Shown here: positions 2,724 through 23,640 of the stretch, piece by piece
Layout: the number at the start of each line of letters is the position of its first letter
Position numbering within the stretch: the first letter of the stretch is position 1
From: a virus
Lineage: Duplodnaviria; Caudoviricetes
IMG/VR virus record: IMGVR_UViG_3300027996_003878
Reading direction: 5' to 3' (one strand)
DNA length: 64,000 nucleotides
Program-made: the position numbers and the translations under genes
The notes under the pieces: model-generated
Databases searched by the model: none
Seen by the model: the letters and a program-made list of their open reading frames with translations, nothing else
Told to the model about the DNA's origin: nothing

Positions 2724-3282
2724 AACTAACTCCTTATAATGTAAACATAACCACTATAGAGCTTATGTCAAATAGTAATCTCATAATAATATATAGAATA
2801 ATAAAATAAGGGAATAAAGGGAAGAAGCGTGAGCAGGAGATCGAACTCTTAAGAAGTAACTCAGGACAATTGATTTACTTCTTCGCTTTACTTCCCCTTA
2901 TTCCCAAATGGTGTGTCATTGCTGGGGGGAAAACAACTTCACAGCCATAAAGTAAGTTTCGTTTAAGGAAAGGTCAACCCTTTTGTAAGGAAAAATGTTT
3001 TGATTTATTTCAAATGGCTGAAATAATTAGAAAAACTCTGGGTAAACGCGCCAAACGAGATTGCAGAAGGCAGTTGCAGCTGTGCCTGGCAGCGGTGTAT
3101 ATTCTTTCTGACCTTCATGCTCAATGCACCATTTAATTGCGAGCCCACGGCCGATTATTGGATAGACATATGTGCGCGCGTGACAATATGAGTTTCCTCT
3201 AGAAATGCCCTTAGAGGTTAGGATGACTGCATATGAATATTTATTAAAAATAACTTCCTAATCAATTAGATAGCTGCTTCGC

Positions 3283-3870
3283 TCAATCAAGCAATCTATT
3301 TCTTGCTTCTTCTATTGCTTCGTATCGTATTTCTCCTTCAAGATCATCTAATCTTTGTAGATGATCCTTTAGCCATTTATCTTGATTGTCGAAAATATAA
3401 TCAGTCAAAGCGGATTCAAGCTTTTCTTTATCTTTTTTGTTTTCAATATTGAGACCGTCGAAGCTTACAAGGTGGAAGTTCTCCAGCTCCCAGCCGCCAG
3501 AGATTCCAACTTCAGGATCTTTGGGCTCATGATACCAATCAGCATCAAAAGAAAATGAGTGACTTGTTGAATCACTGTATTCCTCCCAATTCTCCGGCTC
3601 CTCTCCAAACGTATCCATAACCTCAAGCCAGAATGCATCGCCATCAATCGCTCCTCCGGCGGGTGTAAAATGCTTATCGCTTATGATACGGGGGCCTTTA
3701 ATGCGAAACCCAAGCTCCACATCATCTACCTCAATCGTTTCATCGGAATATCGATCTCGCTCCGCTTGTGAAAAAGGCCCTTTAAGCTCCAAGGTCATAC
3801 CAAGCGCATCTTGAGCTTTCTTCTCAAACATTGAAGCGAATTTACTGATTTTATCTATTAAGTTAGTCAT
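3283..3870 (-). CDS. acidic hypothetical protein with shared N-terminal leader
   Basis: ORF; likely start MTNLIDKISKFASMFEKKAQ. Confidence 0.7.
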   Translation of the reverse strand: MTNLIDKISKFASMFEKKAQDALGMTLELKGPFSQAERDRYSDETIEVDDVELGFRIKGPRIISDKHFTPAGGAIDGDAFWLEVMDTFGEEPENWEEYSDSTSHSFSFDADWYHEPKDPEVGISGGWELENFHLVSFDGLNIENKKDKEKLESALTDYIFDNQDKWLKDHLQRLDDLEGEIRYEAIEEARNRLLD

Positions 3871-3964
3871 TTTTTTCCCTAAAGACACACACGTACACGC
3901 AGTATGTTCGTTAAACTCATCCTCTAAAGATATTAAATTATGACCACTTAAACAAATATTCTTG

Positions 3965-4423
3965 TTATTGAATTTTGATTTTCATAAAGGATTTTGTTAG
4001 TTTAATTAGTTTAACCAAGCTTCTTTCCAAATCATCAAACAAAACAAAACCCTCCTCTTTATCACTGTGCCAGCAACGTAAACCATTGATATCTTTAATT
4101 ACATCGTCACAATGATTTAATAAATTCAAAAAGATAGCTTCAGCTGCTTCTTGAGAGCCTTCAATTTTGGGTAGAATCTTTTCAAAGCAAGCAAGCTCAT
4201 GTGCGTGTGTGAATTCGTGCTTTACTCGCTCAATCTTATCTTCAAGAAAAGACAAGCGGTTATGTGTGTCTTTGAATGATGCCCTAAGAGTAGATTCATT
4301 TTTGTAATCTAAATGACTTACATCATCCTTGTAAATATTCAAAAAATGATTTAGTTCAGAATGATGTTCTTTGAAGTTAATAACATTATTCATAATTAAC
4401 CTGCCATTACCTTGTCTTTCCAA
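3965..4423 (-). CDS. hypothetical protein
   Basis: ORF; true start probably the internal MNNVINF. Confidence 0.65.
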   Translation of the reverse strand: MERQGNGRLIMNNVINFKEHHSELNHFLNIYKDDVSHLDYKNESTLRASFKDTHNRLSFLEDKIERVKHEFTHAHELACFEKILPKIEGSQEAAEAIFLNLLNHCDDVIKDINGLRCWHSDKEEGFVLFDDLERSLVKLIKLTKSFMKIKIQ

Positions 4424-4950
4424 AAATCAAACCCTTCACGCAAAAGCTTTAAAAACTCTGCGTCACTTAGGTTTGTTTCTGTTCCTCCATCACTCCCAAA
4501 ATGATTATGCATGAGAGTTTCAGGATCCATTGGAACATCGCCTTCAACAGGAGAAGCATTAATTGAAACAACCTCCCAATGGCTCTTATCGGGCTCAAGT
4601 GAATTATCTCCACCTTCAGCCAAAACATCCGAACGATAAAGAATAACCTCAACTCGCTTTGCCGGAGCCTTTCTCGCGCCCTTTGCCAATACCTGCTTTC
4701 TAGGAACCTCACCTTCCCTTCTAGACGTGTATGCGCCTGTAAGCTCTGCTCCGGACTCTAAGGAAACAACGCCGCTAAAAAAGCCCTCATGGTTTATCGT
4801 TACAGAAATAACCCCATCTCTGTAACCTGGCTCTTGATTGCTCCAAAAGTTCATAACCATTTTTGGAACTTCTTCAATATTTCCCGCAAAATAAGAAAAA
4901 GGGCTTTCTTTGGTCTGACGAAGTACAAAGGGGTTGTTTACAATTTTCAT
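4396..4950 (-). CDS. hypothetical phage protein
   Basis: 184-aa ORF in operon. Confidence 0.75.
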   Translation of the reverse strand: MKIVNNPFVLRQTKESPFSYFAGNIEEVPKMVMNFWSNQEPGYRDGVISVTINHEGFFSGVVSLESGAELTGAYTSRREGEVPRKQVLAKGARKAPAKRVEVILYRSDVLAEGGDNSLEPDKSHWEVVSINASPVEGDVPMDPETLMHNHFGSDGGTETNLSDAEFLKLLREGFDFWKDKVMAG

Positions 4951-5087
4951 TATTCTTTAATTCCTTTCCAATGGCTTTATTGCCGCCTCTAACTACAAGA
5001 CGCTCTCAGTTGCTCTTTTCTGACAGTAAGCTTCAACTTTTTTTTAAGCGGCCAAGGAAGTTCATGATTTATTTGATTAAAATAATG

Positions 5088-5348
5088 TTAAACGTTCAGC
5101 GTAACAATCCCAAACCCTGAGTGCTCGTCACCCCAAGTAAGAAAAAAATCATCATCATGCAGGGTCGCAAAGTCTAAGCCTTCCGACTCATTGATTTCAT
5201 AAATTTCGCTATAACTCTCACCTTCATATGCGCCCTCTACCATCTTACGAAATTGGTCTTTGGCGCTTTGCTCATCAGTAAAGCTGGAAACAACCTTCAT
5301 GCCCCAGGAAGACTCAACAGATACAATTAAATAAAGTTTATTTGACAT
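5088..5348 (-). CDS. hypothetical protein
   Basis: 86-aa acidic ORF. Confidence 0.7.
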   Translation of the reverse strand: MSNKLYLIVSVESSWGMKVVSSFTDEQSAKDQFRKMVEGAYEGESYSEIYEINESEGLDFATLHDDDFFLTWGDEHSGFGIVTLNV

Positions 5349-5396
5349 AATATTTCTTTCTTTGTTTGATTCGTTTTGTTTTAATTGTTTAAAAAA

Positions 5397-5594
5397 TTAT
5401 GACGCACTTACCAAGCTCAAACACTTCAACGGTGTTCTGGCGTTCATGCCATCTGGAAACCTTACCCAAACTTGCTGTGAGAAAATGTAATCGGCCAATC
5501 GTCTTGCCGGAATAACCCGAACCACTTCTCCTACAGCACCATCATCAGAATGCCTTACCCTATCACCAACTTTAAAAGGATTTTTCATTTTCAT
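5397..5594 (-). CDS. small SH3/KOW-like beta-barrel protein
   Basis: FKVGDRVRH...GEVVRV...VWVRF; paralog of 13150-13350. Confidence 0.65.
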   Translation of the reverse strand: MKMKNPFKVGDRVRHSDDGAVGEVVRVIPARRLADYIFSQQVWVRFPDGMNARTPLKCLSLVSAS

Positions 5595-5884
5595 GTTTCG
5601 AACCTCTTGTTTAAAACTTCTTCAATAGAATTAGCTAATTGTTGCGCAGAATTAAGGCTTTGAATAAAATCGGTTGTAACCTTTGGATTGACCGTACCAA
5701 GGGAAGCCCAATTTACACCTACATTCCACTCCTCACGCCAACAGGAATGAACCACCCTAACTTCAATATGCCTCCCAAACTTCCAGATAGCCGAACTAGA
5801 GCTTGTGTGGGACTCAAGCTTAGCAAACTCAGGGTTCTCGCCATTGACCCGATCAATCAATTCCTTCATAGTCATTGCACTCAT
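5591..5884 (-). CDS. hypothetical protein, paralog family A
   Basis: Similar to 5967-6257 and 10963-11286; AGGAGG SD. Confidence 0.75.
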   Translation of the reverse strand: MSAMTMKELIDRVNGENPEFAKLESHTSSSSAIWKFGRHIEVRVVHSCWREEWNVGVNWASLGTVNPKVTTDFIQSLNSAQQLANSIEEVLNKRFET

Positions 5885-5966
5885 AATCAACCCCCTCCTT
5901 TCATATTACTAACATAACCACCCCAATGGCTTTGTCAAGGGATTCTTTTTTTTATAATTTAATAAT

Positions 5967-6257
5967 CTAATTACTTGCATTTAGAGCATTGTCAATAAAA
6001 TCCACCAGCTCTTTTGCTTGTCTTAAATCATTGGAAAATTCTTCGCATCGTAATGAATCAACCATCCACAATGAAGGCCAGCTAATACCAACCCTCCATG
6101 TTTTTCGCCAAGTAGAATATTGCGCCTTAACTTCTACTTGATTAAAATACCATAAAGCTGCATCTTCATATTTCTTTAAATTTGCATCTGCCAAATTTGC
6201 ATCTGCCCATATAAGATTAAAGCCATTAACCTTATCAATTAAATCCTTAATAGTCAT
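5967..6257 (-). CDS. hypothetical protein, paralog family A
   Basis: MTIKDLIDKVNG vs MTMKELIDRVNG; W..V.V.W.SL core. Confidence 0.75.
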   Translation of the reverse strand: MTIKDLIDKVNGFNLIWADANLADANLKKYEDAALWYFNQVEVKAQYSTWRKTWRVGISWPSLWMVDSLRCEEFSNDLRQAKELVDFIDNALNASN

Positions 6258-6447
6258 TGGCTAAAGCTATGCGCTCCCTTCGCCTTCTCGTGATTTAATT
6301 GCCTTAATTATTTAAATCATTATTATTTTATAAATTAAAATTACGATGAGATGAGAGGGCAAGAGAGCCATATATTGGACAGCAGCTATACAAAAGCTCA
6401 ACAATAACAATTAAGTCTTTTATTTTAAACAACAAAGGAAGATAATT

Positions 6448-6627
6448 ATGAATAAATCAAAAGTATGTTTTATCGCCAGCCTTGCATCCGTTGCGGCTTC
6501 AATTGGAATTTGGGTATACGCAGGAGGTCAGCTTGGTGACGCACACGCACACGCAGAGCGATGGGGACTCTTTGTGGGCTTATGGGCGCCTACGCTCATG
6601 GGTATGGAAAACCACTTGAAGAAATAA
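6448..6627 (+). CDS. small membrane protein (59 aa, not in ORF track)
   Basis: MNKSKVCFIASLASVAASIGIW...ERWGLFVGLWAPTLM; AAGGA SD; opposite strand to neighbours. Confidence 0.75.
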   Translation: MNKSKVCFIASLASVAASIGIWVYAGGQLGDAHAHAERWGLFVGLWAPTLMGMENHLKK

Positions 6628-6719
6628 TTAAAGATAATATTGATTAGGTAGTTATAATAAAGTGCCCCTGTCTGTATTCTTTAAATAAAAAGAAGGGCAG
6701 CGGGGCATCAGTATTATTT

Positions 6720-6947
6720 TCAATTGAACTCTCTTTTAATTACATTATTTACAGCGTTCTCAAGAGCTTTTGCAGGTGTAGGGCCGGTGCCTTCATAAAA
6801 ATCCTTCCAGCTGCTTGTAATATAAGCAATATAGCCAAGGTCTTTTGAACCATTGTTTGGCTTAATGTCCTTGATAGATATCCCCATATTTTTCAAATCT
6901 TCAATTGTTTGAGACATTACATCATCATCATTTATTTCAATTCTCAT
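6720..6947 (-). CDS. hypothetical protein
   Basis: 75-aa ORF with GGAG SD. Confidence 0.7.
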   Translation of the reverse strand: MRIEINDDDVMSQTIEDLKNMGISIKDIKPNNGSKDLGYIAYITSSWKDFYEGTGPTPAKALENAVNNVIKREFN

Positions 6948-6964
6948 AAATACTCCAGATTTTA

Positions 6965-7714
6965 TTAGTTTAGTTGTTTGACCTTTTCTTTACTAGAACC
7001 CGTCATTCCGCTGTGAAATTGAATGCTTCGTCCAGCTTTTCGACCAGCATTTCTTGCATTATTGTCGTGTGCATGTCCAGACGCGCGGTAGTTCTTTGCA
7101 TTCCCCACGAGACATTGCAGGACCTCATTTACGGAATCCATTCGATTATTTAAAAGAACCATAGCTGAAACTTTGCCTTCTTCTTTATATCGCGCCATTT
7201 CTTCATTCTTTGCATCTTGAAGCATTTTGCTTACACTTTCAACTGAACCATGCTTAAAGTTATTTGAAAAACTTTTACCAGAGCCAATGCCAGAAAGAAT
7301 TGCTTGCTTACACAGTCTTTCAATTTCGCGCTCGGCAAAAGAAAATAGGTAGCGGACAACTGCTACGTCCGACTTTCGACCAATAATCTGAATTTCGGCA
7401 TTCTGATTAAAAGAACGGTTGCCTTGGCGAATAACAACTTTACAATCGTTTGGATGAGCAATTCCAACCGCCAAAGAAACACGCCAATTAGAGATACTTT
7501 TTGAAGAATAAAGAGAAGAATCTCCTGCAAAGTACTGAGCTTCTTCATCTACGTTATTGTTAGCGGCCTCTAGTTCAGCTTGTTCAATGCGATGCTTGTC
7601 CATCAACCTTTGAGCTTGAGCCGCTGCGGTTGCTGCCTCTGCTTCTGTTGCACCCTTGCCTTCTGCTAGATTTAGAAGTTTTTGAATCTTTTCGATAATT
7701 GATTTATTGCTCAT
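6965..7714 (-). CDS. DUF2786 domain protein
   Basis: IIEKIQKLLNLAEGKGATEAEAATAAAQAQRLMDKH N-terminus with the typical C-terminal domain. Confidence 0.9.
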   Translation of the reverse strand: MSNKSIIEKIQKLLNLAEGKGATEAEAATAAAQAQRLMDKHRIEQAELEAANNNVDEEAQYFAGDSSLYSSKSISNWRVSLAVGIAHPNDCKVVIRQGNRSFNQNAEIQIIGRKSDVAVVRYLFSFAEREIERLCKQAILSGIGSGKSFSNNFKHGSVESVSKMLQDAKNEEMARYKEEGKVSAMVLLNNRMDSVNEVLQCLVGNAKNYRASGHAHDNNARNAGRKAGRSIQFHSGMTGSSKEKVKQLN

Positions 7715-7825
7715 TTGAATTTATTCCTAATCGTACATGTATGCGTGTAGAAGCATCAAGCTCAATACTAATGTAACCACTTATGACTTCTTGTCAACAT
7801 TAAAATTTACATATGTTTTGTTTGA

Positions 7826-7933
7826 TTATTTAAGATTTGCAATAACAACAAAGGCAACGATAAGGAGGAACCAAAACCAACCTCCGCCACCTTCTTCTTC
7901 AACCACTTCTTCAACAATAAATTTTTTACCCAT
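7826..7933 (-). CDS. small membrane peptide (35 aa)
   Basis: MGKKFIVEEVVEEEGGGGWFWFLLIVAFVVIANLK; AAGGA SD. Confidence 0.6.
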   Translation of the reverse strand: MGKKFIVEEVVEEEGGGGWFWFLLIVAFVVIANLK

Positions 7934-8138
7934 TTTTAATTCCTTTATAAAAGACAATAAGGCTCCCAACTTCCTTATTTAAGTGCGGCCTACGACAGCA
8001 CATGTAAATACGTACTTGCCACGCTTACGCAATCATAATCTTGGCTTCAATCAGCTCCCGGCGATCTGTCCAAGTATTATGATCCACACTCCCCACAATA
8101 TTATTATAATCACTTTTTAATAATTATCAAGTCTTTCT

Positions 8139-8813
8139 TTAAGCAACCATTGGCAATCGAACCACAAACCCGCTTTTATCCGTTTGTGCGCGTCCCTTTG
8201 CTTTAAGACCTACAATGCAGCCCTTGGGGTCTAGGAATCGAAGGTCGTCCTCATCCCCGCTTACTACGAGCTTTCCCCAATACTCTTTCGGCATCTCACC
8301 ACGAAAAACTACGGCTACATTGCCACCACGATCCAACCATTCTCTTGCTTGTTTTTGATTAAGTTCAGTTTCTGCGCGTGAAAAAGTAAGATGATAGTTA
8401 TCAGGAGCATGACGATCATTGTATTTTGTGTAATCGAAAAAAATCTGATCGGAAAACTTTTGAGGAATTCCAAAGGCCTCCCAAGGAATATCACTTGTTA
8501 GATTAAGACGAAATGCAGGAGTCAAACGCATTTTTCTTGCATGAATAATTGCCTTCTCAATATCAAATTCTAAAGTACGAAGAAACTCAGGAAGATCTTT
8601 CCAAAAGAATTGAGTCTTCCTTGAGCGTGACTTTTGAACATTAGGGTAACTGCCATTGCCAACAGTATTCAAGCAACTCCTTAGACAGCCTGAGGTGGCC
8701 CTGGCGCATACTTTACCAGGGAGCAAATGAAGGCCGAAGACAATATAGCCTCGATCACGGCCCTTCATGATTTTTTTGTTATTGGTTGTAAGTAGGTCAA
8801 ACATCTTGCTCAT
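8139..8813 (-). CDS. phage Gp88-like Cys-cluster protein
   Basis: C-x6-C-x3-C, RLNLTSDIPW, FFDYTK, NYHLTFS, GDEDDLRFLD, VGLKAKG motifs; ATG at promoter +1. Confidence 0.8.
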   Translation of the reverse strand: MSKMFDLLTTNNKKIMKGRDRGYIVFGLHLLPGKVCARATSGCLRSCLNTVGNGSYPNVQKSRSRKTQFFWKDLPEFLRTLEFDIEKAIIHARKMRLTPAFRLNLTSDIPWEAFGIPQKFSDQIFFDYTKYNDRHAPDNYHLTFSRAETELNQKQAREWLDRGGNVAVVFRGEMPKEYWGKLVVSGDEDDLRFLDPKGCIVGLKAKGRAQTDKSGFVVRLPMVA

Positions 8814-8865
8814 GATACTAACATAATCACCCATAAACCAATGTCAACCCTTTATCAGTCTTATT

Positions 8866-9237: not shown

Positions 9238-9348
9238 AATATTTACCCAATCTTAAAAATTGCCAATGAGGTATATTGCAACCTCAACATACTACTAATA
9301 TAATCATCCACTACAGGCAGTCAAGGGGTTATTTTGATAAAGTTTTAT

Positions 9349-10381: not shown

Positions 10382-10531
10382 CTTTATCTTCTTTCACTTT
10401 TAGAATAATAATTACAAACCGCGATTAGCGCTGCGGACTGTGATACTAATATAATCACCCATAACTGCCTGTCAATGGGTTTTTAAGAATAATACAGATC
10501 TATATCTATGTAGAACGATGATTCTATTTTA

Positions 10532-10879: not shown

Positions 10880-10952
10880 GCCAATGTAGCTCAATAGGCA
10901 GAGCAGGACATTTGTAATGTCAAGGTTGTAGGTTCGATTCCTATCATTGGCT
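10880..10952 (+). tRNA. tRNA-Thr(UGU)
   Basis: Acceptor GCCAATG/CATTGGC, anticodon loop TT TGT AA, GGTTCGATTCC T-arm; CCA not encoded. Confidence 0.93.
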
Positions 10953-10962
10953 CTACTTTTAT

Positions 10963-11323: not shown

Positions 11324-11629
11324 CTAATCATTACCCGCAGTGCCGTATGTATCAATCCAATCTAGAAAATCTTCCACAGGGGTTTCTGGAAGAGCCCCAA
11401 CACGCATTGAGCCATAACGTCGATAGCAATTGTATAGCCTCCCCTCACCGTCTTCAAACGTCCACTGACACTCATCATAGCCCTTGTCAGGAGCAACCCA
11501 CCCATCCAATGAAGGCTGAAAGAATGTTTCAACAATGGACTGCTGTTTTGAAGAAAGAATATTTCTTAGCGCTAATCCAATTATGTTTGCGTTTTTGATT
11601 AGCTTGTATTTTTGTGTCGTGTCGGTCAT
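11324..11629 (-). CDS. hypothetical protein (leaderless start)
   Basis: ATG 7 nt after -10 box; track extension MSDYISI is the promoter. Confidence 0.7.
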   Translation of the reverse strand: MTDTTQKYKLIKNANIIGLALRNILSSKQQSIVETFFQPSLDGWVAPDKGYDECQWTFEDGEGRLYNCYRRYGSMRVGALPETPVEDFLDWIDTYGTAGND

Positions 11630-11678
11630 GATACTAATATAATCACTCACTAGAGCGTGCCAATATAAAACACATATT

Positions 11679-11894: not shown

Positions 11895-12216
11895 CTCCGG
11901 CTGTTGGACTCGAACCAACGACCTAGTGGTTACTTACTACTACAGCTTTCACTGCCACAAAAGTGTTTGTAGTCTGGACTATATCATCACCCTCGGCTTT
12001 ACGTTAGGGTGTCCGGCGCTAATGTGGTAATTAAGAGGACTTTACCTCTCCACTAGCCTCTGCACCTTCCAGCGGTGTACTGCTGGCTTGGCTCAGGATT
12101 AGCATATCTGCCACGCAAACTTAGCCTTCCCTGAATTCACCGGATTTACATCATAAAGTTTCCTCCATGAGCTGCTAACTCACAGCCACTTGCTCTACCA
12201 ACTGAGCTAAGCCGGA
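11895..12216 (-). tRNA. tRNA-Asn(GUU) split by group I intron at 35/36
   Basis: Exon1 12216-12182 ends AGTGGCTGT; exon2 11932-11895 begins TAACCACT; spliced loop CT GTT AA. Confidence 0.92.
11933..12181 (-). mobile_element. group I intron (249 nt, no ORF)
   Basis: P AATTCAGGGAA, Q AATCCTGAGC, R CAGAGGCTA, S GATATAGTCC; follows U, ends in G. Confidence 0.92.
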
Positions 12217-12435
12217 ATGGTGTGCCTCTAGCTACAATAACCAACTTAGCTATCTTGCATGTCGGAGGCACACTTAATTTTATTTAACAAAAAAACTTCT
12301 CTCGAAATAATTAATATGTGGGCTTAAAAATAACTATTTGATAAAATATTAATAATTACAAAGCCATCACAAACGTCTTGTAATTGTTCGTGTAATATAA
12401 TCATGTCGATACAAAGGTCAACATCTTCTTGCTTG

Positions 12436-13367: not shown

Positions 13368-13607
13368 TTAACGAATTACGATCCAGCCACCCTTGGACTC
13401 TACGTAACAAGTTCCCACATTTGAGTAAATACAACAATAAACGCGACGCCACCTATTGTTATCAGGTAATTTAACCATTTTAGAAGTTGGAATCTTCTTG
13501 CCATACCCGGTCCTTGTGTAACTAAGGCCTTTTTCTTGCCACCAAAGAGGCTCTTCCTTGCTTTCGAGTTCAGACAAGTCGTATCGCTTAATAATGTTCT
13601 TCTTCAT
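13368..13607 (-). CDS. hypothetical phage protein (leaderless start)
   Basis: ATG at promoter +1; WWQ..GLS.T.TGYG.KIPT, RWRRVYC..YSN.GT motifs. Confidence 0.75.
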   Translation of the reverse strand: MKKNIIKRYDLSELESKEEPLWWQEKGLSYTRTGYGKKIPTSKMVKLPDNNRWRRVYCCIYSNVGTCYVESKGGWIVIR

Positions 13608-13666
13608 AATACTAATATAATCACTCACTGGGTGGCGTCAAGTGTTACCGCTAAAATATTTTATTA

Positions 13667-13942: not shown

Positions 13943-13943
13943 C

Positions 13944-14150
13944 CTAACAAGTGAATTGAACAAAAGACTCATCTTTAAGCTGCTCTTGAAGATGATCAAT
14001 AATACAATCAATGCTCTCAAGCGTCTCTTTAATAGTAAACTTCTTCTTGGCCTTTTGCCACTCAATAATTTGATCTTTAAGATCTTGAATCCGCTCTTGC
14101 TTCATAGCATCGACCAAACAGGCTAGTGGTTTTGTTGTCTTTATCATCAT
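13944..14150 (-). CDS. hypothetical protein (leaderless start)
   Basis: ATG 7 nt after -10 box. Confidence 0.7.
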   Translation of the reverse strand: MMIKTTKPLACLVDAMKQERIQDLKDQIIEWQKAKKKFTIKETLESIDCIIDHLQEQLKDESFVQFTC

Positions 14151-14220
14151 GATACTAATATAATCACTCACGCATACGTGTCAATAGTGTACGTGCTCTT
14201 TTTTCTTAATATTAAATTTG

Positions 14221-14818: not shown

Positions 14819-15208
14819 TCATTTAATTACCTCAACCTCTTCGCCTTTTTCATTAACGTAAACAAGGCGTGATGCATTCTTAGAGCACGGGAACAAGCAG
14901 CCGCCATAGACTGGGTTTGAAAAATAACCCATCAAGCTGGTTAGGGGCTTTGCCGTACCGCTCTTGTCGAGTCGCGCTTTCTTTACTGTCGCCTTCATAC
15001 TACTAATATAACCACCATGAAGGATGGCGCAAGGGCAATTTCTGACAAAAAACTCTATGAAGTATTTCTCGCCGCTTTGAAGGTGCTCCACACAGGCGGA
15101 GGTTTCCTCATCTCGAAGGCGACTGAGAAAAACTCGTAGGGCCGCCTCCGGTGAACTTGCCTTTATTTCGTCAGTTAATTGAACTTGGTATGTTTCTTCT
15201 GCTTCCAT
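14819..15208 (-). CDS. hypothetical ORF containing an internal promoter; 14819-14998 is a probable separate leaderless gene
   Basis: GGYISSM in the ORF is the promoter motif read in frame. Confidence 0.6.
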   Translation of the reverse strand: MEAEETYQVQLTDEIKASSPEAALRVFLSRLRDEETSACVEHLQSGEKYFIEFFVRNCPCAILHGGYISSMKATVKKARLDKSGTAKPLTSLMGYFSNPVYGGCLFPCSKNASRLVYVNEKGEEVEVIK

Positions 15209-15756: not shown

Positions 15757-15801
15757 AGTAATCTCCTTGCGGTTTAGCTCCTCGCTACAATACTAATATA
15801 A

Positions 15802-16389
15802 TCACCCAATCAATGATGTCAACACCCAGCCGCCTTCTTTTTTCTTTGGCAGGTGATTTCGCAAGCTAAAGAAAAGCTCACAAATCTCAAGGGCATCATT
15901 TTGTTGTTTTGTTAGTTTTGTGCAGTCAATATGGCCTTTTTCATTTTTAAAGGTTTCTACAATAACATCGGCAAGGCAGTTCTTTGGCTCAAATGAAATA
16001 AAGTTCTCGCTGCAATAATCAAGAAGTTTGCAATCAAGACGAAGCATGTAATATCGAACGCTTTGAACTTCCCAGCTTTTTCCTGTTTTAGCAAGAACTC
16101 CAAAAGGCTTCCCAGGAACATCATCGTAATCGAAATAAACCCCTACTCCTTTTTCTTGCTTATATACAACTTGACCCTCCATGTCGCCGCCTTCATAGTC
16201 CATGGCAACCAAGCAATTTTCAACTTTAGCAAAAGCCTCATTGCATCGGTCAAGTTTACGCTGATAAGCATCGCTCCTTGGCCTCGTTGACCATGCGCTC
16301 GACCGACCGCTGAACCTGTAACAATAGACAGGGCCACGAAGGGTTTTGACAGGCCGAGTTTTTCGCAGTGTATAGATGTATGTTCCCAT
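15802..16389 (-). CDS. hypothetical protein
   Basis: AAGGAG SD; promoter 16410-16437; stop codon lies inside the next promoter. Confidence 0.75.
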   Translation of the reverse strand: MGTYIYTLRKTRPVKTLRGPVYCYRFSGRSSAWSTRPRSDAYQRKLDRCNEAFAKVENCLVAMDYEGGDMEGQVVYKQEKGVGVYFDYDDVPGKPFGVLAKTGKSWEVQSVRYYMLRLDCKLLDYCSENFISFEPKNCLADVIVETFKNEKGHIDCTKLTKQQNDALEICELFFSLRNHLPKKKEGGWVLTSLIG

Positions 16390-16466
16390 AGTGCTCTCCT
16401 TACACTACTAATATAATCACTACATGCCCTGCGTCAATCCCATTATTGCTTTTTTCTTATTATTAA

Positions 16467-16658: not shown

Positions 16659-16743
16659 TATTATTTCTGCCTCCTGTGCAGATCAATATAGTATAAACAT
16701 AATCACTTTAATGCAAAAAGTCAAGATAATATAAAATGCTTAT

Positions 16744-18583: not shown

Positions 18584-18654
18584 TTTTCCTCCGTAATACC
18601 AACATAACCATACAAGTACAGATGTCAAGCTCTATAATGCATTGCTCTATAACT

Positions 18655-18864
18655 TTATTTTGAAATTGGCGCTTTTACGCAATGTCCTTTTTCGCATTTA
18701 AGATTAACTTTTGCGCAAACAATCCCGGCTCCAGGAATAAATTGATACGTTTTAAAGTGCCAGTCCTTCACCTCATTTGGAAATACACACACGTCCGCAG
18801 TTACCGCTTGTGACTTAGAACCCGCACACCCGCACACAAGTAGCGCTATAGCTATGCCCCTCAT
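18655..18864 (-). CDS. putative small lipoprotein
   Basis: MRGIAIALLVCGC signal with lipobox-like Cys. Confidence 0.65.
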   Translation of the reverse strand: MRGIAIALLVCGCAGSKSQAVTADVCVFPNEVKDWHFKTYQFIPGAGIVCAKVNLKCEKGHCVKAPISK

Positions 18865-18873
18865 AATAAACTC

Positions 18874-19068
18874 CTAAACTAGATAATTAGGTACTTTTTT
18901 CCAAAACTCACAAACAACTTGCTTTTTCTTTACATCCATCGACTTAGCAATCTCACTGTTTAAAAACAACTCCCATGCTTCTGATTGGTAATCAGCTCGA
19001 ATGTAAAACCCACCAACGTCACTTGCTTTTTGACTTCCGCTGATAATTGCAAACCTATATTCATTCAT
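18874..19068 (-). CDS. hypothetical protein
   Basis: 64-aa ORF. Confidence 0.6.
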   Translation of the reverse strand: MNEYRFAIISGSQKASDVGGFYIRADYQSEAWELFLNSEIAKSMDVKKKQVVCEFWKKVPNYLV

Positions 19069-19141
19069 AGTAAAACTCTTGTCTTTGATTAAAATGTTTA
19101 AGGGCGAGGGGGCGAGCTTAACCCGCCCCCAGGGTTATGCT

Positions 19142-19435
19142 CTAATCATCACCCCACTCTTCAATAACTTCATTGTGATTTTCGTCTAGCTCCATAACCA
19201 CATCCGGCCTCACAAACGTCTTGTTGTAGTCAATCTCGGGCTCATATTCAGGATCGATTGAAAGATTTCGCCCATCGCTTAGTCGAATGTTCAGAGTTCC
19301 CCATTTTACATAAAAACCCTCCACATCTTTCGCCCAAGAAAATTTATGATCTTCTTCGAGCTTTTGAACATCCCACTCAACATTCACACTGTACTTCGCG
19401 TTTAAAAACATCACTTGACGATTTTTCGCATTCAT
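19142..19435 (-). CDS. hypothetical protein
   Basis: 97-aa ORF followed by a GC-rich hairpin near 19107-19131. Confidence 0.7.
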   Translation of the reverse strand: MNAKNRQVMFLNAKYSVNVEWDVQKLEEDHKFSWAKDVEGFYVKWGTLNIRLSDGRNLSIDPEYEPEIDYNKTFVRPDVVMELDENHNEVIEEWGDD

Positions 19436-19445
19436 AATAAACCTC

Positions 19446-19745
19446 TTAACTTTGGGCGATTTTAACCAATTGATTAGAATGTTTGAGGGCGATCTTTCTA
19501 GCTCGCTCCAAATGATGTCCCGTCAAGTGCCGACCGCTTTCTACCCACTTAGCATAATAACCGCCCTTTCTCGCAGCCCAAGAGCAAAAGCCTTTGTTGT
19601 TGCTGTGGCGCGTCTGGTCGTCTCGCTGCTCATCCTCCGTCTGCAACTTGAACAGAGCAACCATAGCCCGCTCAACAGCTCGGGAGGATGTATGCAACAA
19701 AGTATCAATCTTGTCTCGGGTCCAGGTGGTTTCTGTCTTGTTCAT
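19446..19745 (-). CDS. hypothetical phage protein (leaderless start)
   Basis: ATG at promoter +1; QTEDEQ..., HSNNKGF motif. Confidence 0.8.
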   Translation of the reverse strand: MNKTETTWTRDKIDTLLHTSSRAVERAMVALFKLQTEDEQRDDQTRHSNNKGFCSWAARKGGYYAKWVESGRHLTGHHLERARKIALKHSNQLVKIAQS

Positions 19746-19795
19746 GATACTAATATAACCACCCAGACCCCTCCGTCAACCCCTTTGATTGGGAA

Positions 19796-20224
19796 TTATT
19801 CTTTTAGATTAACAAACATTTTCGCGCGCCCACAATGAACAAACATGCGAACTTCTTTTGCCTCATAAACTGGTTTAAGAAGATCTCTGGTAACAAAACT
19901 TTCAAATTTATAAGGATTGTACGTGACTTCTACCCAATCTTTATCTTTTAACAATTCCTCAAATGTTTTAAAAGTTGTTTCTGGGCCAACTTCATTCCAT
20001 TTAAAACGTTTCCCACGCACAAACGCATGAACGTTCTTTACTTTTTCTTTAAGTACTTTCTTCCTTCCAGCGGGTTGAACTGCGAACTTAACATCTCTTA
20101 AATTCACAACTCGCGAATGGTCCACAACTCGACCACGCTCAGGGCCAGACAAAGCACGAACCGAATAAGTATCTTTATGCAGATTCCAGTAAACTTCTAC
20201 GCGCGCACTCATGGCTAACTCCAT
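19796..20224 (-). CDS. conserved hypothetical phage protein
   Basis: VEVYWNLHK..YSV, KEKVKNVHAFV, VTYNPYK motifs. Confidence 0.8.
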   Translation of the reverse strand: MELAMSARVEVYWNLHKDTYSVRALSGPERGRVVDHSRVVNLRDVKFAVQPAGRKKVLKEKVKNVHAFVRGKRFKWNEVGPETTFKTFEELLKDKDWVEVTYNPYKFESFVTRDLLKPVYEAKEVRMFVHCGRAKMFVNLKE

Positions 20225-20640
20225 TCTATATGAGTAAAATCATTCTCTTTTGCCCAATCAACCAAATTAGACAACAAGTTAATCTTTTCAATCAAGTAGT
20301 TTTCATCAATTCCATGCTCAACCATACGCACAGGACGCATCTCAATCACACCATCTCGCATGCATGGCTTTCCATGAACAATTTTTTGCTTACGCACATG
20401 CTTGGATAGATGGTTCGTATTGTTTGATTTAATCTTTGCCCGGTTAATAAGAGCCATCATCTCAGAAAGACTCAACTCACCACAAAGATCTTCTGAATCA
20501 ATATCCAAGCTCGCAAGCACACGCCTACAGTTGGAATTTGCCAAGTTAAGCTCTTTCTCATCTGAAGAGCGAAAAATCTCCCAATCACGAACCTTACGGA
20601 CAACAACTTTTTTGTCAATTGCTTTAAACACAACGCTCAT
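20215..20640 (-). CDS. hypothetical protein
   Basis: 141-aa ORF in operon. Confidence 0.7.
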   Translation of the reverse strand: MSVVFKAIDKKVVVRKVRDWEIFRSSDEKELNLANSNCRRVLASLDIDSEDLCGELSLSEMMALINRAKIKSNNTNHLSKHVRKQKIVHGKPCMRDGVIEMRPVRMVEHGIDENYLIEKINLLSNLVDWAKENDFTHIEWS

Positions 20641-20652
20641 AACTATACCCCC

Positions 20653-20889
20653 TCACACATCATCGAATTCATCTTGAGCATCTAGAAACTCATACTCACG
20701 TGTGTATGACTCAGGCTTACACTCATTCTCCACAATTGAGTAATAACAACTACCATGAGCCCTATACTTCGCCTTGGATTGAACCGCCTCCGAAAAGCTA
20801 TCAATTGGACCATCAATTGCCTCAGCAGATTGAATCCCCCGAACCATGCCAAGAATAGCATCATCACGCTTCTTCATTATCCAATACAT
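20653..20889 (-). CDS. hypothetical protein
   Basis: Promoter 20908-20935; AAGGGG SD. Confidence 0.7.
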   Translation of the reverse strand: MYWIMKKRDDAILGMVRGIQSAEAIDGPIDSFSEAVQSKAKYRAHGSCYYSIVENECKPESYTREYEFLDAQDEFDDV

Positions 20890-20980
20890 TGCTGCCCCTT
20901 CAAAACTAATATAACCACTTTGGATAGTGAGTCAAGGTGCGTGCAGGCCTTTTTACCCACACGCACCCACATGTTCTCAA

Positions 20981-21694
20981 TTAAACAACTTCTACTCGCT
21001 CCAAACCACCCAGCTTAATGATAGGCTTTTGCTCATCCAACAAAGTCAAAGTAACGAACCGACTCACAGGCAGACGCTTACGCATCAACTTCTTCGCAAT
21101 TACTTTTGCGCTTGACTTGCTTGGAGGTACAGGACCGTTTTTTGCTGGAATAATAACTTTCTGGGAGATCATTAGTCCAGACAAGTAGATCGAACCAGGG
21201 ACAGGCGCCTTTCGATCTTCTGGATTGCACTCTCGGCATCCACAATCATCCGACAAGTCAGAGGTGCAAAGGTAAACTTTTGAACCACGAACAACTTTAT
21301 CGTCAACAATTAGTTGTTCAAAAACATGATCGTGAGTTGCCTTGTTTTCTCCGCGTGAACTCAACACCAAAGACTCACGCAATTCTTCTCGGGCAAGAAG
21401 AACATCCTCAACCCCAACAAGCTCACCTGTTTTTGAATCACGAAGATCACGCTCATGTGCTTCCGTAAGAATCTCCGAATTAGAAAGATTGTCCAGAACT
21501 TTGACGGACCTCTCACAAAGCGAGAGGTAAGAGAATCCGGTAATCATGATGATCTTGCTGCGATCATCTCCAAAGATCTTCTTGCTTTCTCCCCTTCCTC
21601 TTGGCTTTCCTTTCTTTGTGTATTCGACGCTTGTAAACACAGCGCCTTTGGCCTGATTCGAAATGTAATCTTCAAGTTTCATTAGATCGGGCAT
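20981..21694 (-). CDS. hypothetical protein
   Basis: 237 aa; AGGAAG SD; promoter 21743-21770. Confidence 0.75.
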   Translation of the reverse strand: MPDLMKLEDYISNQAKGAVFTSVEYTKKGKPRGRGESKKIFGDDRSKIIMITGFSYLSLCERSVKVLDNLSNSEILTEAHERDLRDSKTGELVGVEDVLLAREELRESLVLSSRGENKATHDHVFEQLIVDDKVVRGSKVYLCTSDLSDDCGCRECNPEDRKAPVPGSIYLSGLMISQKVIIPAKNGPVPPSKSSAKVIAKKLMRKRLPVSRFVTLTLLDEQKPIIKLGGLERVEVV

Positions 21695-21939
21695 GGTTGA
21701 CTTCCTTTCTTGTTATGACCGTTTGCTCCCGGTCACAATACTAATATAATCACTCAAGCCGACCTGTCAACCGATCCGTCAAAAAAAACCAAACCAATAC
21801 GCACGCATGTTTTTGATTGAGAAAAAAAACTCAGCCTTTGAACACTGGACAAGTCCTCACACGCGCGCATATTAAAACAGCCCTAAGAGCCCTCGGAGGT
21901 TTTCTTTGATTAACATCTTGTTCTTCTTTTTGTCAGGAC

Positions 21940-22200
21940 AAGTCCCGCAACCTTTCTCCTTTTTTTTCTTTGAAAGAAAGAAAGAAAGAAAGAAAGAAAG
22001 AACCTACCTTTTTCTCAAAGAAAAAGAATTCCTTTTTTCTTTGAAAAAAAGAAAGAACCTTCTACTCCTTTTTTTTCTTTGAAAAAAAAAGAAGGTATTG
22101 GAAAACTACGTTTTCCAACCTCGCCCTGACACACACATGTGCGTCAGCCCTTTTTGCTGATTAAAAAAAAGGCAAAAAAAATTAAACAAAAAAAAAGACA
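21940..22200 (+). repeat. low-complexity A/T tracts and (GAAA)n microsatellite with repeated TTTTTTCTTTGAAA units
   Basis: Seen directly in the sequence. Confidence 0.85.
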
Positions 22201-22237
22201 AAAAAAAAGCTCCCCGCCGTAGCGGGGAGCTTTTTTC
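22201..22237. terminator. bidirectional intrinsic terminator
   Basis: AAAAAAAAGCTCCCCGC-CGTA-GCGGGGAGCTTTTTT. Confidence 0.9.
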
Positions 22238-23323
22238 TTATTCGAGCATTGATTCGAGGATGTTGGAGCCAAGCTGCTCCGACTCGACGCCCGCCTCGGT
22301 TGCCTCGGGCACGCTCATGTACTCGCTCGTTCCATCGGCCAACATGACCTCGACCAGGTATTCCACTGTTTCGAGGTGCTGGGCTGCCTTGGCAGCCCGC
22401 GACCCATACATGGCCTCCAGCCGGGTCGTGCCTTTACGGGTGCCTCGCTCGCTGCCGTCCACGTGCCTGTCTAGCAGGAACGTGGCTGCATTCCAAAGCG
22501 TAGCAAGGTTCTGACCGTCCCCGATTCTATTGATCGGATTGGCCATGGCTTGCTCGAACTCAGTCACGCGCTTATGATATCGCGTGACCGCGTTTTTTGA
22601 AGCGTCCTCGCCAACTGGCGAGATGAACGTATCGAATGCCGTACGCGCTTGCGTCCACGTCAGGCGCTTGCTTGTCGTTTCGAGCAACGCTGCCATACTG
22701 CCGCCTTCAGCGACGATCTTGGGCAGCGCATCCTTAATCGCACGGACCTTGCCATCAAGCCCGCGAGTATGTTTGATCTTGGCCCATTCCGCGCCATCTT
22801 GGTCAAGCGCGGCTTTGAGCGTGTTTGCGCACACGACTCGGATCGACGTGCCGCCCATGCAAAGGCGCAGCGAGCCGTCGAAGCTATCGGCAATGGTTAG
22901 GTACTGATGTACCCCGCCGATCTCTCCAAGGGAAAAGACGGCAACCTGGCGCTTGCCGTCGTGCAAGCTGAACATGCCAGCCGGCTTGGCTCCGGCCAAG
23001 GTGGCAGCTATGCAAAGCTGCCGGAAGTCTTCAGGAAGGAGCGGGTTATACCGCGCCCCATTAAGACCCACCACAATGGGCGGGGCGGTGTCGTAAAGCG
23101 CAATTAGCGCTTTTTTGTCATCGGCTTGGATCTCCAAGCCGCCATCGGTCACAAAGACCGGCGTGTGAACTTCCAACGCGGTAGCTACCGCGTTGAGTCT
23201 TGTGCCATGGGTGAACATCTGCTCGCCTGTCTGGCACTCCTCGTCTGGAATTAGGGTTTCAGCGCCGTGCCACGTCCGGCCAGAAGATTCGACGAAAAAA
23301 CCACGATTGAAACATGCAGGCAT
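22238..23323 (-). CDS. DUF932 family protein (GC-rich gene)
   Basis: WHG, AGMFSLHDGKR, YLTIADSFDGS, TSIRVVCANTL, TLWNA motifs; start MPACF after GGAG SD; tandem promoters upstream. Confidence 0.85.
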   Translation of the reverse strand: MPACFNRGFFVESSGRTWHGAETLIPDEECQTGEQMFTHGTRLNAVATALEVHTPVFVTDGGLEIQADDKKALIALYDTAPPIVVGLNGARYNPLLPEDFRQLCIAATLAGAKPAGMFSLHDGKRQVAVFSLGEIGGVHQYLTIADSFDGSLRLCMGGTSIRVVCANTLKAALDQDGAEWAKIKHTRGLDGKVRAIKDALPKIVAEGGSMAALLETTSKRLTWTQARTAFDTFISPVGEDASKNAVTRYHKRVTEFEQAMANPINRIGDGQNLATLWNAATFLLDRHVDGSERGTRKGTTRLEAMYGSRAAKAAQHLETVEYLVEVMLADGTSEYMSVPEATEAGVESEQLGSNILESMLE

Positions 23324-23640
23324 AATTGACTTCTCCAATATTTTTTGGAATCGGACTGTCCGACTCACTACTAATGTAATCACGCTACTTGGAACGTCAA
23401 GGACTTTTGTTTAATCCTTGTTTTGTCTCGCCCCGTTCACATTGTTAATATAATCACGCTGCTCCCCTTGTCAATTATTCAAACGAAAAAAAGCCCGTTT
23501 TGCCGCTTTTTTCCAAAAAGCGCCGAAAACTGACAAAAAAGGAAAGAAAGCGCCAGATCCCGCGAGTTTCTGAGAAAAGCTCCCGGCAATATTGCGCGCC
23601 CGCTCCGCGTGGCCCCGGCAAAACCCCACTTATGGCTCAA

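What the first reader, a model, noticed from the sequence alone, without database searches (positions are those of the whole stretch)
2744..23474. Array of at least 21 co-oriented early promoters ending abruptly at a non-coding block
Seen: TTGACN-N16-TATRTT-AGTANN with a conserved G(T/A)GRT spacer end, roughly one per kb, all on the minus strand. I found none right of 23474. The 16-nt spacer is nearly invariant. Known: SPO1 and T7/T5 early regions use repeated strong host-RNAP promoters ahead of small host-takeover genes. Inference: this is the first-transcribed host-takeover region, built from promoter-plus-gene cassettes. The repeat may also mediate cassette shuffling.
Basis: partly seen in the sequence, partly recalled or inferred. 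Interest (0 to 1): 0.75.

Follow-up and report, generated by a model that had tools for sequence, protein, structure and literature searches.

The report
Early promoter array of marine jumbo phage
A 21-kb block of small genes in an uncultured ~296-kb marine phage carries 21 near-identical, same-direction bacterial-type promoters, the kind of strong early-gene promoter array known from phages such as T4; about a third of them should start the message exactly at the start codon.

Summary
A weight-matrix scan finds 21 sites (18 strong, 3 weak) of TTGACa-N16-TATRTT, with GTGRT before the -10 box and AGTAty after it. All lie on the minus strand between 2738 and 23474. None lies elsewhere in the 64-kb window or in 8.7 kb beyond its left edge.

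They are almost certainly real housekeeping-sigma promoters:
- The predicted +1 is a purine in 21 of 21 sites.
- Six genes start with ATG exactly at +1 and have no ribosome-binding site.
- Other transcripts begin with a 5' hairpin or a Shine-Dalgarno sequence.
- The sites are kept in relatives at 95% nucleotide, 92% protein and 54% protein identity.

The genome is a widespread uncultured marine jumbo phage. The block holds about 55 mostly orphan genes and 5 tRNAs. "Early, read by host RNA polymerase" is the best reading but remains an inference: no RNA data exist and the host is unknown.

"Promoter-plus-gene cassettes" is only partly right, because there is one promoter per 2-3 genes and almost no terminators. 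Cassette shuffling is unsupported: strains are collinear and the sites lack a PeSL-type stem-loop.

The motif carries about 34 bits, far more than needed, and an unrelated T4-like phage shares it. The closest known cases are T4, T5 and SPO1 early promoters. This scan has already reported similar leaderless promoter arrays in other phage genomes.

The parts
23441..23474 (-). Promoter 1, the upstream member of a tandem pair: TTGACA-N16-TATATT, followed by aacaat. Predicted +1 is G at 23440.
   Evidence: Kept in the 92% relative L040 with TATGTT.
23367..23400 (-). Promoter 2: TTGACG-N16-TACATT-agtagt. The transcript starts with a 5' hairpin, and a 43-nt leader runs to the DUF932 ATG at 23323.
   Evidence: In L040 the hairpin is kept through a compensatory change.
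21737..21770 (-). Promoter with the top matrix score. A 5' hairpin GTGACCG..CGGTCA starts at +1, and a 42-nt leader runs to the 237-aa gene.
   Evidence: Kept in L019 (95% nt). A degenerate orthologue with the same hairpin is present in L017 (54% aa).
20902..20935 (-). Promoter with a 12-nt leader containing a Shine-Dalgarno sequence, ahead of a 78-aa gene.
19746..19779 (-). Promoter with the ATG of a 99-aa gene exactly at +1 (leaderless).
18595..18628 (-). Promoter (ATGGT/ggtatt variant) with an 11-nt leader containing a Shine-Dalgarno sequence.
16690..16724 (-). Promoter, the only site with a 17-nt spacer. A 31-nt leader begins with a 5' hairpin.
16404..16437 (-). Promoter with a 14-nt leader containing a Shine-Dalgarno sequence, ahead of a 195-aa gene.
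15789..15822 (-). Promoter with a 32-nt leader. It serves a 108-aa gene followed by tRNA-Lys.
14999..15032 (-). Weak site: poor -35 (TTGCGC) but a perfect downstream half. ATG lies at +1 of a 59-aa frame, inside a longer automatically called ORF.
14151..14184 (-). Promoter with the ATG of a 68-aa gene at +1 (leaderless).
13608..13641 (-). Promoter with the ATG of a 79-aa gene at +1 (leaderless).
12388..12421 (-). Weak site (ATGAT, acacga) ahead of the intron-containing tRNA and tRNA-Leu. Probably a tRNA promoter.
11630..11663 (-). Promoter (TTGGCA) with the ATG of a 101-aa gene at +1 (leaderless).
10442..10475 (-). Promoter with a 60-nt leader that begins with a 5' hairpin, ahead of a 139-aa gene.
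9291..9324 (-). Promoter with ATG at +1 but only a short frame. A 5' hairpin is followed by a 53-nt leader to a 123-aa gene.
8814..8847 (-). Promoter with the ATG of the GP88-family gene (224 aa) at +1 (leaderless).
8097..8130 (-). Weak site: TTGATA-N16-TATAAT-aatatt. It is followed by about 130 nt with no clear gene.
7764..7797 (-). Promoter (TACATT) with a 49-nt leader to the DUF2786/DUF7168 gene.
5905..5938 (-). Promoter. A 5-codon mini-frame starts at +1, followed by GGAGG and a 97-aa gene.
2738..2771 (-). Last promoter (tacatt variant) with a 14-nt leader containing a Shine-Dalgarno sequence. It serves small genes and then UvdE.
22198..22241 (-). Strong intrinsic terminator (20-pair stem plus T run) that closes the first unit, DUF932.
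710..746 (-). Intrinsic terminator (17 pairs plus T run) downstream of the array.
23475..24523 (.). Repeat-rich block without a convincing ORF, upstream of the first promoter. The preceding minus-strand gene ends with a terminator at 24524-24540.
2738..23474 (-). The whole promoter-bearing block: about 55 small genes, mostly orphans, plus five tRNA genes. Of the three found by ARAGORN, one (tRNA-Thr) is on the plus strand. One group I intron is confirmed by Rfam. The other two tRNAs, both intron-split, are taken from scan notes.

Best explanation
The 21 sites are genuine promoters of the housekeeping-sigma (sigma-70/sigma-A) class. They drive the pre-replicative ('early') gene block of an uncultured ~296-kb marine jumbo phage, most likely through the host's own RNA polymerase holoenzyme. 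Sigma region 4 would read TTGACa. Sigma region 2 would read TATRTT, with A at -11 and T at -7. The invariant G at -5 inside AGTA is where sigma region 1.2 contact gives long-lived open complexes. Transcription starts at the purine 7 nt after the -10 box. Three kinds of message follow: leaderless (ATG at +1, 6 genes), short leaders that begin with a Shine-Dalgarno sequence (5), and 30-60-nt leaders that begin with a protective 5' hairpin (about 7). Two sites probably serve tRNAs or non-coding RNA. Terminators are almost absent after the first unit, so transcripts overlap and each promoter re-boosts transcription along the block. Shown: the motif, its strand and regional restriction, its geometry relative to genes, and its conservation in relatives. 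Inferred: which polymerase and sigma reads it, the timing, the promoter strength, and any host-takeover role of the genes.
For: 1. Statistics: 15 exact matches against 0.2 expected, and 21 matrix sites, all on one strand within 20.7 kb.
2. Only functional positions are conserved: -35 8.6 bits, first 11 spacer positions 1.0 bit, GTGRT 7.9, -10 9.9, AGTAty 6.3. Flanks are unconserved, so this is selection and not duplication.
3. Start-site geometry: +1 is a purine in 21/21 sites (P=3e-6) and -1 a pyrimidine in 20/21. ATG lies at +1 in 8/20 sites (P=6e-9), six of them opening 59-224-aa frames with no Shine-Dalgarno sequence.
4. Those leaderless 5' ends are unstructured, whereas long leaders start with hairpins at +1 to +3.
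5. Conservation: L019 (95% nt) keeps the 21770 site. L040 (92% aa) keeps both tandem sites, changes only degenerate -10 positions, and keeps the hairpin by a compensatory change, while the upstream DNA diverges with indels. The TARA relative L017 (54% aa, no nucleotide similarity) has a full site plus a degenerate orthologous one with the same 5' hairpin.
6. An unrelated T4-like phage (Pfam gp20, gp21, gp22, gp23) carries at least 4 same-strand sites TTGACA-N16/17-TGAT-TATATT-AGTATT. Twenty-five IMG/VR contigs hold the form, which fits reading by bacterial polymerase rather than a private factor of this lineage.
7. Gene content is typical of phage early regions: orphans plus DUF932, L5 gp82, RadC, DUF3846, GP88 and DUF2786.
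8. Literature: T4 early promoters are likewise 'uber' promoters with consensus beyond the hexamers (PMC2988021). The -5G/sigma 1.2 contact, the hexamer consensus and the spacer rules are reviewed in PMC2613000.
Against: There is no transcript evidence at all. The host is unknown, so 'host sigma-70' cannot be checked against host promoters. The TG lies at -16/-15, one position upstream of the canonical TGn at -15/-14, and the fixed spacer of 16 is not the 17-bp optimum of E. coli (PMC2613000). The motif holds about 34 bits against about 15 needed to be found in the genome, which leaves room for a second reader. The strict motif is at chance level in 596 Gb of bacterial genomes (2 hits), so it is not a common bacterial promoter form. 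Unverified scan notes say the phage encodes RpoD-like and RpoH-like sigma factors. Only a quarter of the genome was scanned.
Confidence: 0.65

Rival explanations
1. The sites are a phage-private promoter class. They would be read by host core polymerase carrying the phage's own RpoD-like sigma, or by polymerase altered by a virion-delivered protein such as one of the capsid-tagged ADP-ribosyltransferases. The block would then be delayed-early or middle rather than immediate-early. The extra blocks GTGRT and AGTA would be what distinguishes phage promoters from host promoters.
For: There are 19 bits of excess information, 14 of them in the two non-canonical blocks. The TG is displaced by one position and the spacer is rigid at 16 nt. 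The strict motif is essentially absent from 596 Gb of bacterial genomes. Scan notes report phage sigma genes and head-targeted ART genes (unverified). T4 Alt raises the activity of some T4 early promoters (PMC2988021).
Against: The -35 and -10 hexamers are near-perfect housekeeping consensus, which needs no new factor. The same extended form occurs in an unrelated T4-like phage and in other IMG/VR contigs. Strong phage early promoters usually exceed host promoters in information content (PMC2988021).
Confidence: 0.2
2. The conserved bases flanking the -10 box double as an operator. A phage or host DNA-binding protein would bind GTGRT...AGTA, and also the TATATTAG words repeated in the adjacent repeat-rich block, to shut off all early promoters at once. 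This does not exclude the main explanation.
For: Excess information sits around the -10 box. The 9-mer TTATATTAG occurs only in the promoters (11 times) and in the repeats of the block at 23.7-24.0 kb (3 times, opposite strand), and nowhere else in 64 kb. How T4 shuts off early transcription is still unexplained (PMC2988021).
Against: The flanks have no dyad symmetry (read directly from the sequence). No candidate regulator was identified. G at -5 and Y(-1)R(+1) are already explained by polymerase contacts (PMC2613000). Three block copies against about 2 expected by chance is weak.
Confidence: 0.12
3. The repeats act mainly as recombination substrates, like the PeSL cassettes of T4-type phages, moving promoter-plus-gene modules within and between genomes.
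For: Identical 15-17-nt cores recur about every kb ahead of orphan genes. PeSL-mediated shuffling is documented in RB49/phi1 and other T4-like phages (PMC2839356, PMC4122927). Gene order around the 237-aa gene differs in the 54% relative L017.
Against: There is no stem-loop component (mean z -0.36 against shuffles). Ten assemblies of the phage are collinear, with only small indels. Homology is limited to about 16 nt. There is one promoter per 2-3 genes, not one per gene.
Confidence: 0.05

Closest known systems
Early promoters (Pe) of phage T4 and T4-like phages
   Same: There are dozens of strong sigma-70-type promoters, read without phage proteins, clustered before small non-essential genes of unknown function. 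The consensus extends beyond the two hexamers ('uber' promoters). Injected ADP-ribosyltransferase (Alt) modulates them (PMC2988021). This phage also carries head-tagged ART genes nearby, according to unverified scan notes.
   Different: There is no positionally conserved UP element. TG lies at -16/-15 instead of TGn at -15/-14. The spacer is fixed at 16 nt. A third of the transcripts are leaderless. The array sits in one 21-kb block on one strand. The virus belongs to a different lineage, said by scan notes to be related to Bacillus phage G.
PeSL (promoter-early stem-loop) cassettes of T4-type hyperplastic regions (Arbiol et al. 2010, PMC2839356; Comeau et al. 2014, PMC4122927)
   Same: A repeated strong sigma-70-like promoter lies immediately upstream of orphan genes in a plastic region.
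   Different: The defining stem-loop/terminator half is missing. No indel between strains ends at a promoter.
Host-takeover and early regions of SPO1, T5 and T7 (own knowledge; T5 temporal classes in PMC7472727)
   Same: Clustered, co-oriented strong host-polymerase promoters lie ahead of small early genes, next to a special non-coding or terminal region.
   Different: No evidence here for a terminal repeat or a fixed genome end. Three ~296-kb assemblies are cut at three different places. The promoter density, 21 in 21 kb, is higher.
Leaderless phage messages: lambda cI from PRM; middle and late genes of Thermus phage phiYS40 (Sevostyanova et al. 2007, own knowledge, paper not held); -10 box adjacent to ORFs in Deinococcus-Thermus (PMC12340547)
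   Same: The -10 box is placed so that +1 is the A of the ATG, with no Shine-Dalgarno sequence.
   Different: Here a full -35/-10 promoter is used. Leaderless and Shine-Dalgarno-led genes are mixed in one array. The other genes have strong Shine-Dalgarno sequences.

Membership tests
Housekeeping-sigma (sigma-70/sigma-A) -35/-10 promoter | -35 hexamer close to TTGACA | tested here: met
   TTGAC is exact in 18 of 21 sites; the block carries 8.6 bits.
Housekeeping-sigma (sigma-70/sigma-A) -35/-10 promoter | -10 hexamer TATAAT-like with A at -11 and T at -7 | tested here: met
   TATRTT or TAYRTT in all sites; 9.9 bits.
Housekeeping-sigma (sigma-70/sigma-A) -35/-10 promoter | Spacer of 17 +/- 1 bp | tested here: met
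   16 bp in 20 sites and 17 bp in one. This is within range but not the E. coli optimum (PMC2613000).
Housekeeping-sigma (sigma-70/sigma-A) -35/-10 promoter | Extended -10 TGn at -15/-14 (optional element) | tested here: not met
   The conserved TG is at -16/-15 (GTGRT-TATRTT), one position off the canonical register (PMC2613000).
Housekeeping-sigma (sigma-70/sigma-A) -35/-10 promoter | Start at a purine 6-8 nt after the -10 box, with pyrimidine at -1 | tested here: inconclusive
   Sequence geometry fits: 21/21 purine, 20/21 pyrimidine, ATG at +1, hairpins at +1. No 5' ends have been measured.
Housekeeping-sigma (sigma-70/sigma-A) -35/-10 promoter | Transcription by holoenzyme carrying the primary sigma | not testable with these tools
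   Needs in vitro transcription or infection data. The host is unknown.
Phage early (immediate, host-polymerase) promoter class | Clustered ahead of small pre-replicative genes and absent from other gene classes | tested here: met
   21 sites in 2.7-23.5 kb. None in 40.5 kb of other genes in the window or in 8.7 kb to the left. About 223 kb was not scanned.
Phage early (immediate, host-polymerase) promoter class | Active immediately after infection without phage protein synthesis | not testable with these tools
   No RNA holder was listed, and the laid runs were contigs only.
PeSL cassette (T4-type phages) | Stable stem-loop (terminator/attenuator) within or next to the promoter | tested here: not met
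   Folding of -60 to -13 gives a mean z of -0.36 against shuffles. Terminator-like sites in the block are no more frequent than in shuffles.
PeSL cassette (T4-type phages) | Indels between close relatives end at the motif | tested here: inconclusive
   All assemblies are >=99.6% identical and collinear. No long contig of a 70-95% relative was found.
Leaderless mRNA genes | Start codon at the transcript's 5' end, no Shine-Dalgarno sequence, unstructured 5' end | tested here: met
   Six frames start at predicted +1, the upstream sequence is the promoter itself, and folding energies are 0 to -2 kcal/mol. The +1 is predicted, not measured.

The most novel reading that the evidence does not exclude
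TTGACA-N16/17 with TG at -16/-15, TATATT and an AGTA discriminator may be a distinct promoter class confined to phages. It is shared by unrelated marine phages but is at chance level in 596 Gb of bacterial genomes. Its extra ~14 bits could be read by something other than plain host holoenzyme, for example polymerase modified by injected ADP-ribosyltransferases, or a phage sigma. That would give these phages a private channel of transcription at the moment of entry. Such a grammar could also link uncultured phages that share a host.
Probability: 0.18. Interest if true: 0.6.

Novelty: new member of a known kind. Interest (0 to 1): 0.35.

Why it matters
The array gives a ready-made transcription map for a widespread but uncultured marine jumbo phage: 21 predicted start sites, three types of 5' end, and one insulated first gene. 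It marks about 55 orphan genes as the likely first wave of expression, which is where anti-defence and host-takeover functions are usually found. The motif corrects automatic gene calls at the leaderless genes, where callers extend frames into the promoter. The promoters are candidates for very strong portable promoters. The displaced TG and the conserved AGTA offer a clean natural data set on how spacer and discriminator bases tune housekeeping-sigma promoters. As a phenomenon it is ordinary for large virulent phages, and this scan has already seen similar arrays.

Tried and rejected
- Whole-genome scan: no genome is held for this window, and the ENA record behind L026 cannot be searched.
- RNA evidence: no RNA holder was listed. 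The four runs laid were Logan contigs. One run of uncertain kind (RNA or DNA) held low-depth fragments of a ~95% relative. The other three matched only tRNA-like and poly-A stretches. Nothing on starts or expression could be read.
- Nucleotide search of cultured phages: only a tRNA-Thr match to Pseudomonas phages ZC03 and ZC08.
- Strict motif in public collections: 2 singletons in IMG/VR, 14 in JGI metagenomes and 2 in GTDB genomes. No arrays were found, and the singleton loci show no homology to the window apart from one small ORF in L007.
- Relatives through GP88: the next hits, at 58-69% identity (L020-L025), are other large phages without this motif or any rigid repeated promoter.
- Relatives through DUF932: the next hits, at <=44% identity, are small Mu-F-type phages. 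A viral-contig scan with DUF932 found none.
- Relatives through the 237-aa gene: only 1-2-kb contigs.
- PeSL-like stem-loops in the promoters: absent.
- Positional UP element: not seen, only general AT-richness.
- A second promoter class elsewhere in the window, sought by k-mer enrichment: none found.
- Core 16-mer alone in IMG/VR: more than 118 chance singletons, uninformative except for L104/L105.
- Host inference from the T4-like phage that shares the motif: its nearest cultured relatives, at 59-64% major capsid protein identity, infect several different hosts, so there is no answer.
- phiYS40 paper: not held.

Full report
**The observation**

The exact pattern TTGAC-N17-TATRTT occurs 15 times in the window, always on the minus strand. 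Dinucleotide-preserving shuffles give 0.2. A relaxed search and a weight matrix built from 18 seeds, run on both strands with spacers of 15-17, give 21 distinct sites between 2738 and 23474. Eighteen are strong (25-39 bits). Three are weak:
- 8130: TTGATA...TATAAT.
- 12421: ATGAT, acacga.
- 15032: poor -35.

No site lies on the plus strand, and none lies in 23.5-64 kb. Block shuffles give 0-1 hit at the threshold used. The spacer is 16 nt in 20 sites and 17 nt in one. Mean spacing between sites is 1035 bp. Assemblies of the same phage extend 8.7 kb beyond the window's left edge and hold no further site. The array therefore has two edges.

**Where it is**

The window belongs to a ~296-kb uncultured marine phage. 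It has been assembled many times: contigs of 295,897 and 296,205 bp, and 23-24 contigs were read for each of two genes. Ten loci from these assemblies are 99.6-99.98% identical to the window and collinear with it. No cultured phage is similar at the nucleotide level. Earlier notes of this scan call it a jumbo phage related to Bacillus phage G. I did not test that.

The promoter-bearing block holds about 55 small minus-strand genes and five tRNA genes. Three tRNAs were found by ARAGORN, one of them on the plus strand. One group I intron was confirmed by Rfam. The two intron-split tRNAs come from scan notes. Most proteins are orphans. The Pfam hits are DUF932, L5 gp82, RadC, DUF3846, GP88, DUF2786/DUF7168, DUF3228 and UvdE.

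Upstream of the first promoter lies a ~1-kb repeat-rich stretch without a convincing ORF. It follows the terminator of the preceding operon.

**Why these are promoters and not just repeats**

- *Conservation pattern.* Conservation is confined to the positions that polymerase reads. The -35 block carries 8.6 bits and the -10 block 9.9 bits. A GTGRT block at -17 to -13 carries 7.9 bits and AGTAty at -6 to -1 carries 6.3. The first 11 spacer positions together carry 1.0 bit, and the flanks are unconserved. Copies made by duplication would be similar throughout.
- *Start-site rule.* The base 7 nt after the -10 box is a purine in 21 of 21 sites, and the base before it is a pyrimidine in 20 of 21 (P about 3e-6 and 2e-6). 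This is the usual start-site preference.
- *ATG at +1.* ATG sits exactly at that position in 8 of 20 sites (P=6e-9). In six of them it opens a 59-224-aa frame with no Shine-Dalgarno sequence, because the upstream bases are the promoter itself.
- *5' end structure.* The six leaderless 5' ends are predicted to be unstructured. The 30-60-nt leaders at 23400, 21770, 16724, 12421, 10475 and 9324 begin with a hairpin within 3 nt of +1. Five further units have 11-14-nt leaders that start with the Shine-Dalgarno sequence.
- *Selection in relatives.* A 95% relative keeps the 21770 site, with changes only in unconserved spacer positions and at a degenerate -10 position. A relative with 92% identity in DUF932 keeps both tandem promoters, changes only degenerate -10 positions, and keeps the +1 hairpin through a compensatory change, while the DNA just upstream diverges with indels. 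A TARA Oceans relative has only 54% protein identity and no nucleotide similarity. It has a full-consensus site, a cut one at the contig end, and a degenerate orthologous promoter (TTGCAC-16-TAGATT) followed by the same GTGACC...GGTCAC hairpin.

**Who reads them**

The hexamers are near-perfect housekeeping-sigma consensus. The invariant G two bases after the -10 box is the position where sigma region 1.2 contact stabilises open complexes (PMC2613000).

Two features are not canonical. The conserved TG is one position further upstream than the usual TGn, and the spacer is rigidly 16 nt rather than 17.

The motif carries about 34 bits, against about 15 needed to specify 21 sites in the genome. 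The strict form occurs 9 times in this block. It occurs only twice in 596 Gb of bacterial and archaeal genomes, twice in IMG/VR and 14 times in JGI metagenome contigs.

This could mean a phage-specific reader. However, an unrelated T4-like phage from IMG/VR (portal gp20, protease gp21, scaffold gp22 and capsid gp23 by Pfam) has at least four same-strand sites TTGACA-N16/17-TGAT-TATATT-AGTATT. Twenty-five IMG/VR contigs carry the form, several of them twice. Two of those sites are again followed by ATG at +1.

A grammar shared across phage lineages is more simply explained by the polymerase of their hosts, pushed to its optimum, as with the T4 early 'uber' promoters (PMC2988021).

I therefore favour host holoenzyme at about 0.65. 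I keep a phage sigma or modified polymerase at about 0.2. Scan notes report RpoD-like and RpoH-like sigma genes and head-tagged ADP-ribosyltransferases in this genome; I did not verify them.

**Architecture**

The first unit is insulated: two tandem promoters, a 5' hairpin, the GC-rich DUF932 gene and a 20-pair terminator at 22198-22241. DUF932's next homologues, at <=44% identity, sit in small unrelated phages, so the gene was probably acquired horizontally.

After that unit, terminator-like sites are no more frequent than in shuffles. Twenty-one promoters serve about 55 genes, so 'one promoter, one gene' does not hold. The expected result is a set of overlapping read-through transcripts with a fresh start every kilobase. 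For the six genes without a Shine-Dalgarno sequence, their own leaderless transcript would be the only efficient route to translation.

**Shuffling**

The published precedent is the PeSL cassette of T4-type phages, a strong early promoter fused to a stem-loop terminator (PMC2839356, PMC4122927). Here the stem-loop is absent. The assemblies are collinear, but they are too similar for a real test. The idea is neither supported nor excluded.

**Comparison and novelty**

Dense, co-oriented arrays of very strong host-type promoters before small early genes are textbook for T4, T5 and SPO1. Leaderless phage messages are also known. This is a new member of that kind in an uncultured marine jumbo phage, with three particular features:
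- a displaced TG;
- an AGTA discriminator;
- a mixture of leaderless, short-leader and hairpin-leader units.

This scan has already reported similar leaderless promoter arrays in other uncultured phages.

**What is missing**

There is no RNA evidence, no host, and no scan of the other three quarters of the genome.

Noticed in passing
window 47263-50920 (+): The phage encodes both glyoxylate-shunt enzymes side by side: isocitrate lyase (411 aa, Pfam ICL 5.7e-101) and malate synthase (531 aa, 5.8e-114), separated by a 257-aa ORF at 48514-49287. GMP reductase/IMPDH-like (53762-54805) and thymidylate synthase (54851-55702) lie nearby.
   Followed up: no
window 10880-10953 (+): A strong tRNA-Thr(UGU) (67.6 bits) lies on the plus strand inside the otherwise minus-strand early block. 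It is 89% identical to the tRNA-Thr of Pseudomonas phages ZC03 and ZC08. No plus-strand promoter was obvious.
   Followed up: partly
window 21987-24009: Independent assemblies break in or near the repeat-rich block: contig ends map to about 24009, 23754, 23690 and 21987 of the window. The window's own contig starts elsewhere. Repeats probably break the assemblies, and a fixed genome end is not shown.
   Followed up: partly
L104, L105, L163, L178 (IMG/VR sample 3300038701): An uncultured T4-like phage (nearest cultured major capsid proteins at 59-64% identity include OM43 phage Melnitz and Pelagibacter phage HTVC008M) uses nearly the same extended promoter. Its sites are followed by a conserved leader GWAGGCARCGARAGGA.
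   Followed up: partly
window 22238-23323 (-): The first early gene (DUF932) lies in the only GC-rich part of the window (49% against about 37%). Its nearest non-strain homologues, at <=44% identity, are in small phages with Mu-F-type heads, next to a DUF2786/DUF7168 gene like the one at 6965-7714.
   Followed up: partly
window 8813-8834, 11629-11650, 13607-13628, 14150-14171: Automatic gene callers extend the leaderless genes by 7 codons to an in-frame ATG or GTG that lies inside the promoter spacer. For example, GP88 is called as 231 aa instead of 224 aa.
   Followed up: yes
window 5890-5904 (-): At promoter 5938 the predicted transcript starts with a 5-codon mini-frame (ATG AAA GGA GGG GGT TGA). 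The mini-frame contains the Shine-Dalgarno sequence of the real gene.
   Followed up: no
window 11955-12191 (-): Rfam confirms a group I intron (95.8 bits) in the early block, between the weak promoter 12421 and tRNA-Leu.
   Followed up: partly
window 6448-6627 (+); L007 4214-4369: A 59-aa plus-strand ORF inside the minus-strand block has a weak translated match in a metagenome contig. That contig itself carries two same-strand sites of the promoter type.
   Followed up: no
L022 10671-11396; L024 4812-5771: In other large phages, the neighbours of GP88 include Gad2 (anti-Gabija family), Ku, and ArdC-N/MPTase-PolyVal. This hints that such small-gene blocks carry anti-defence genes.
   Followed up: no
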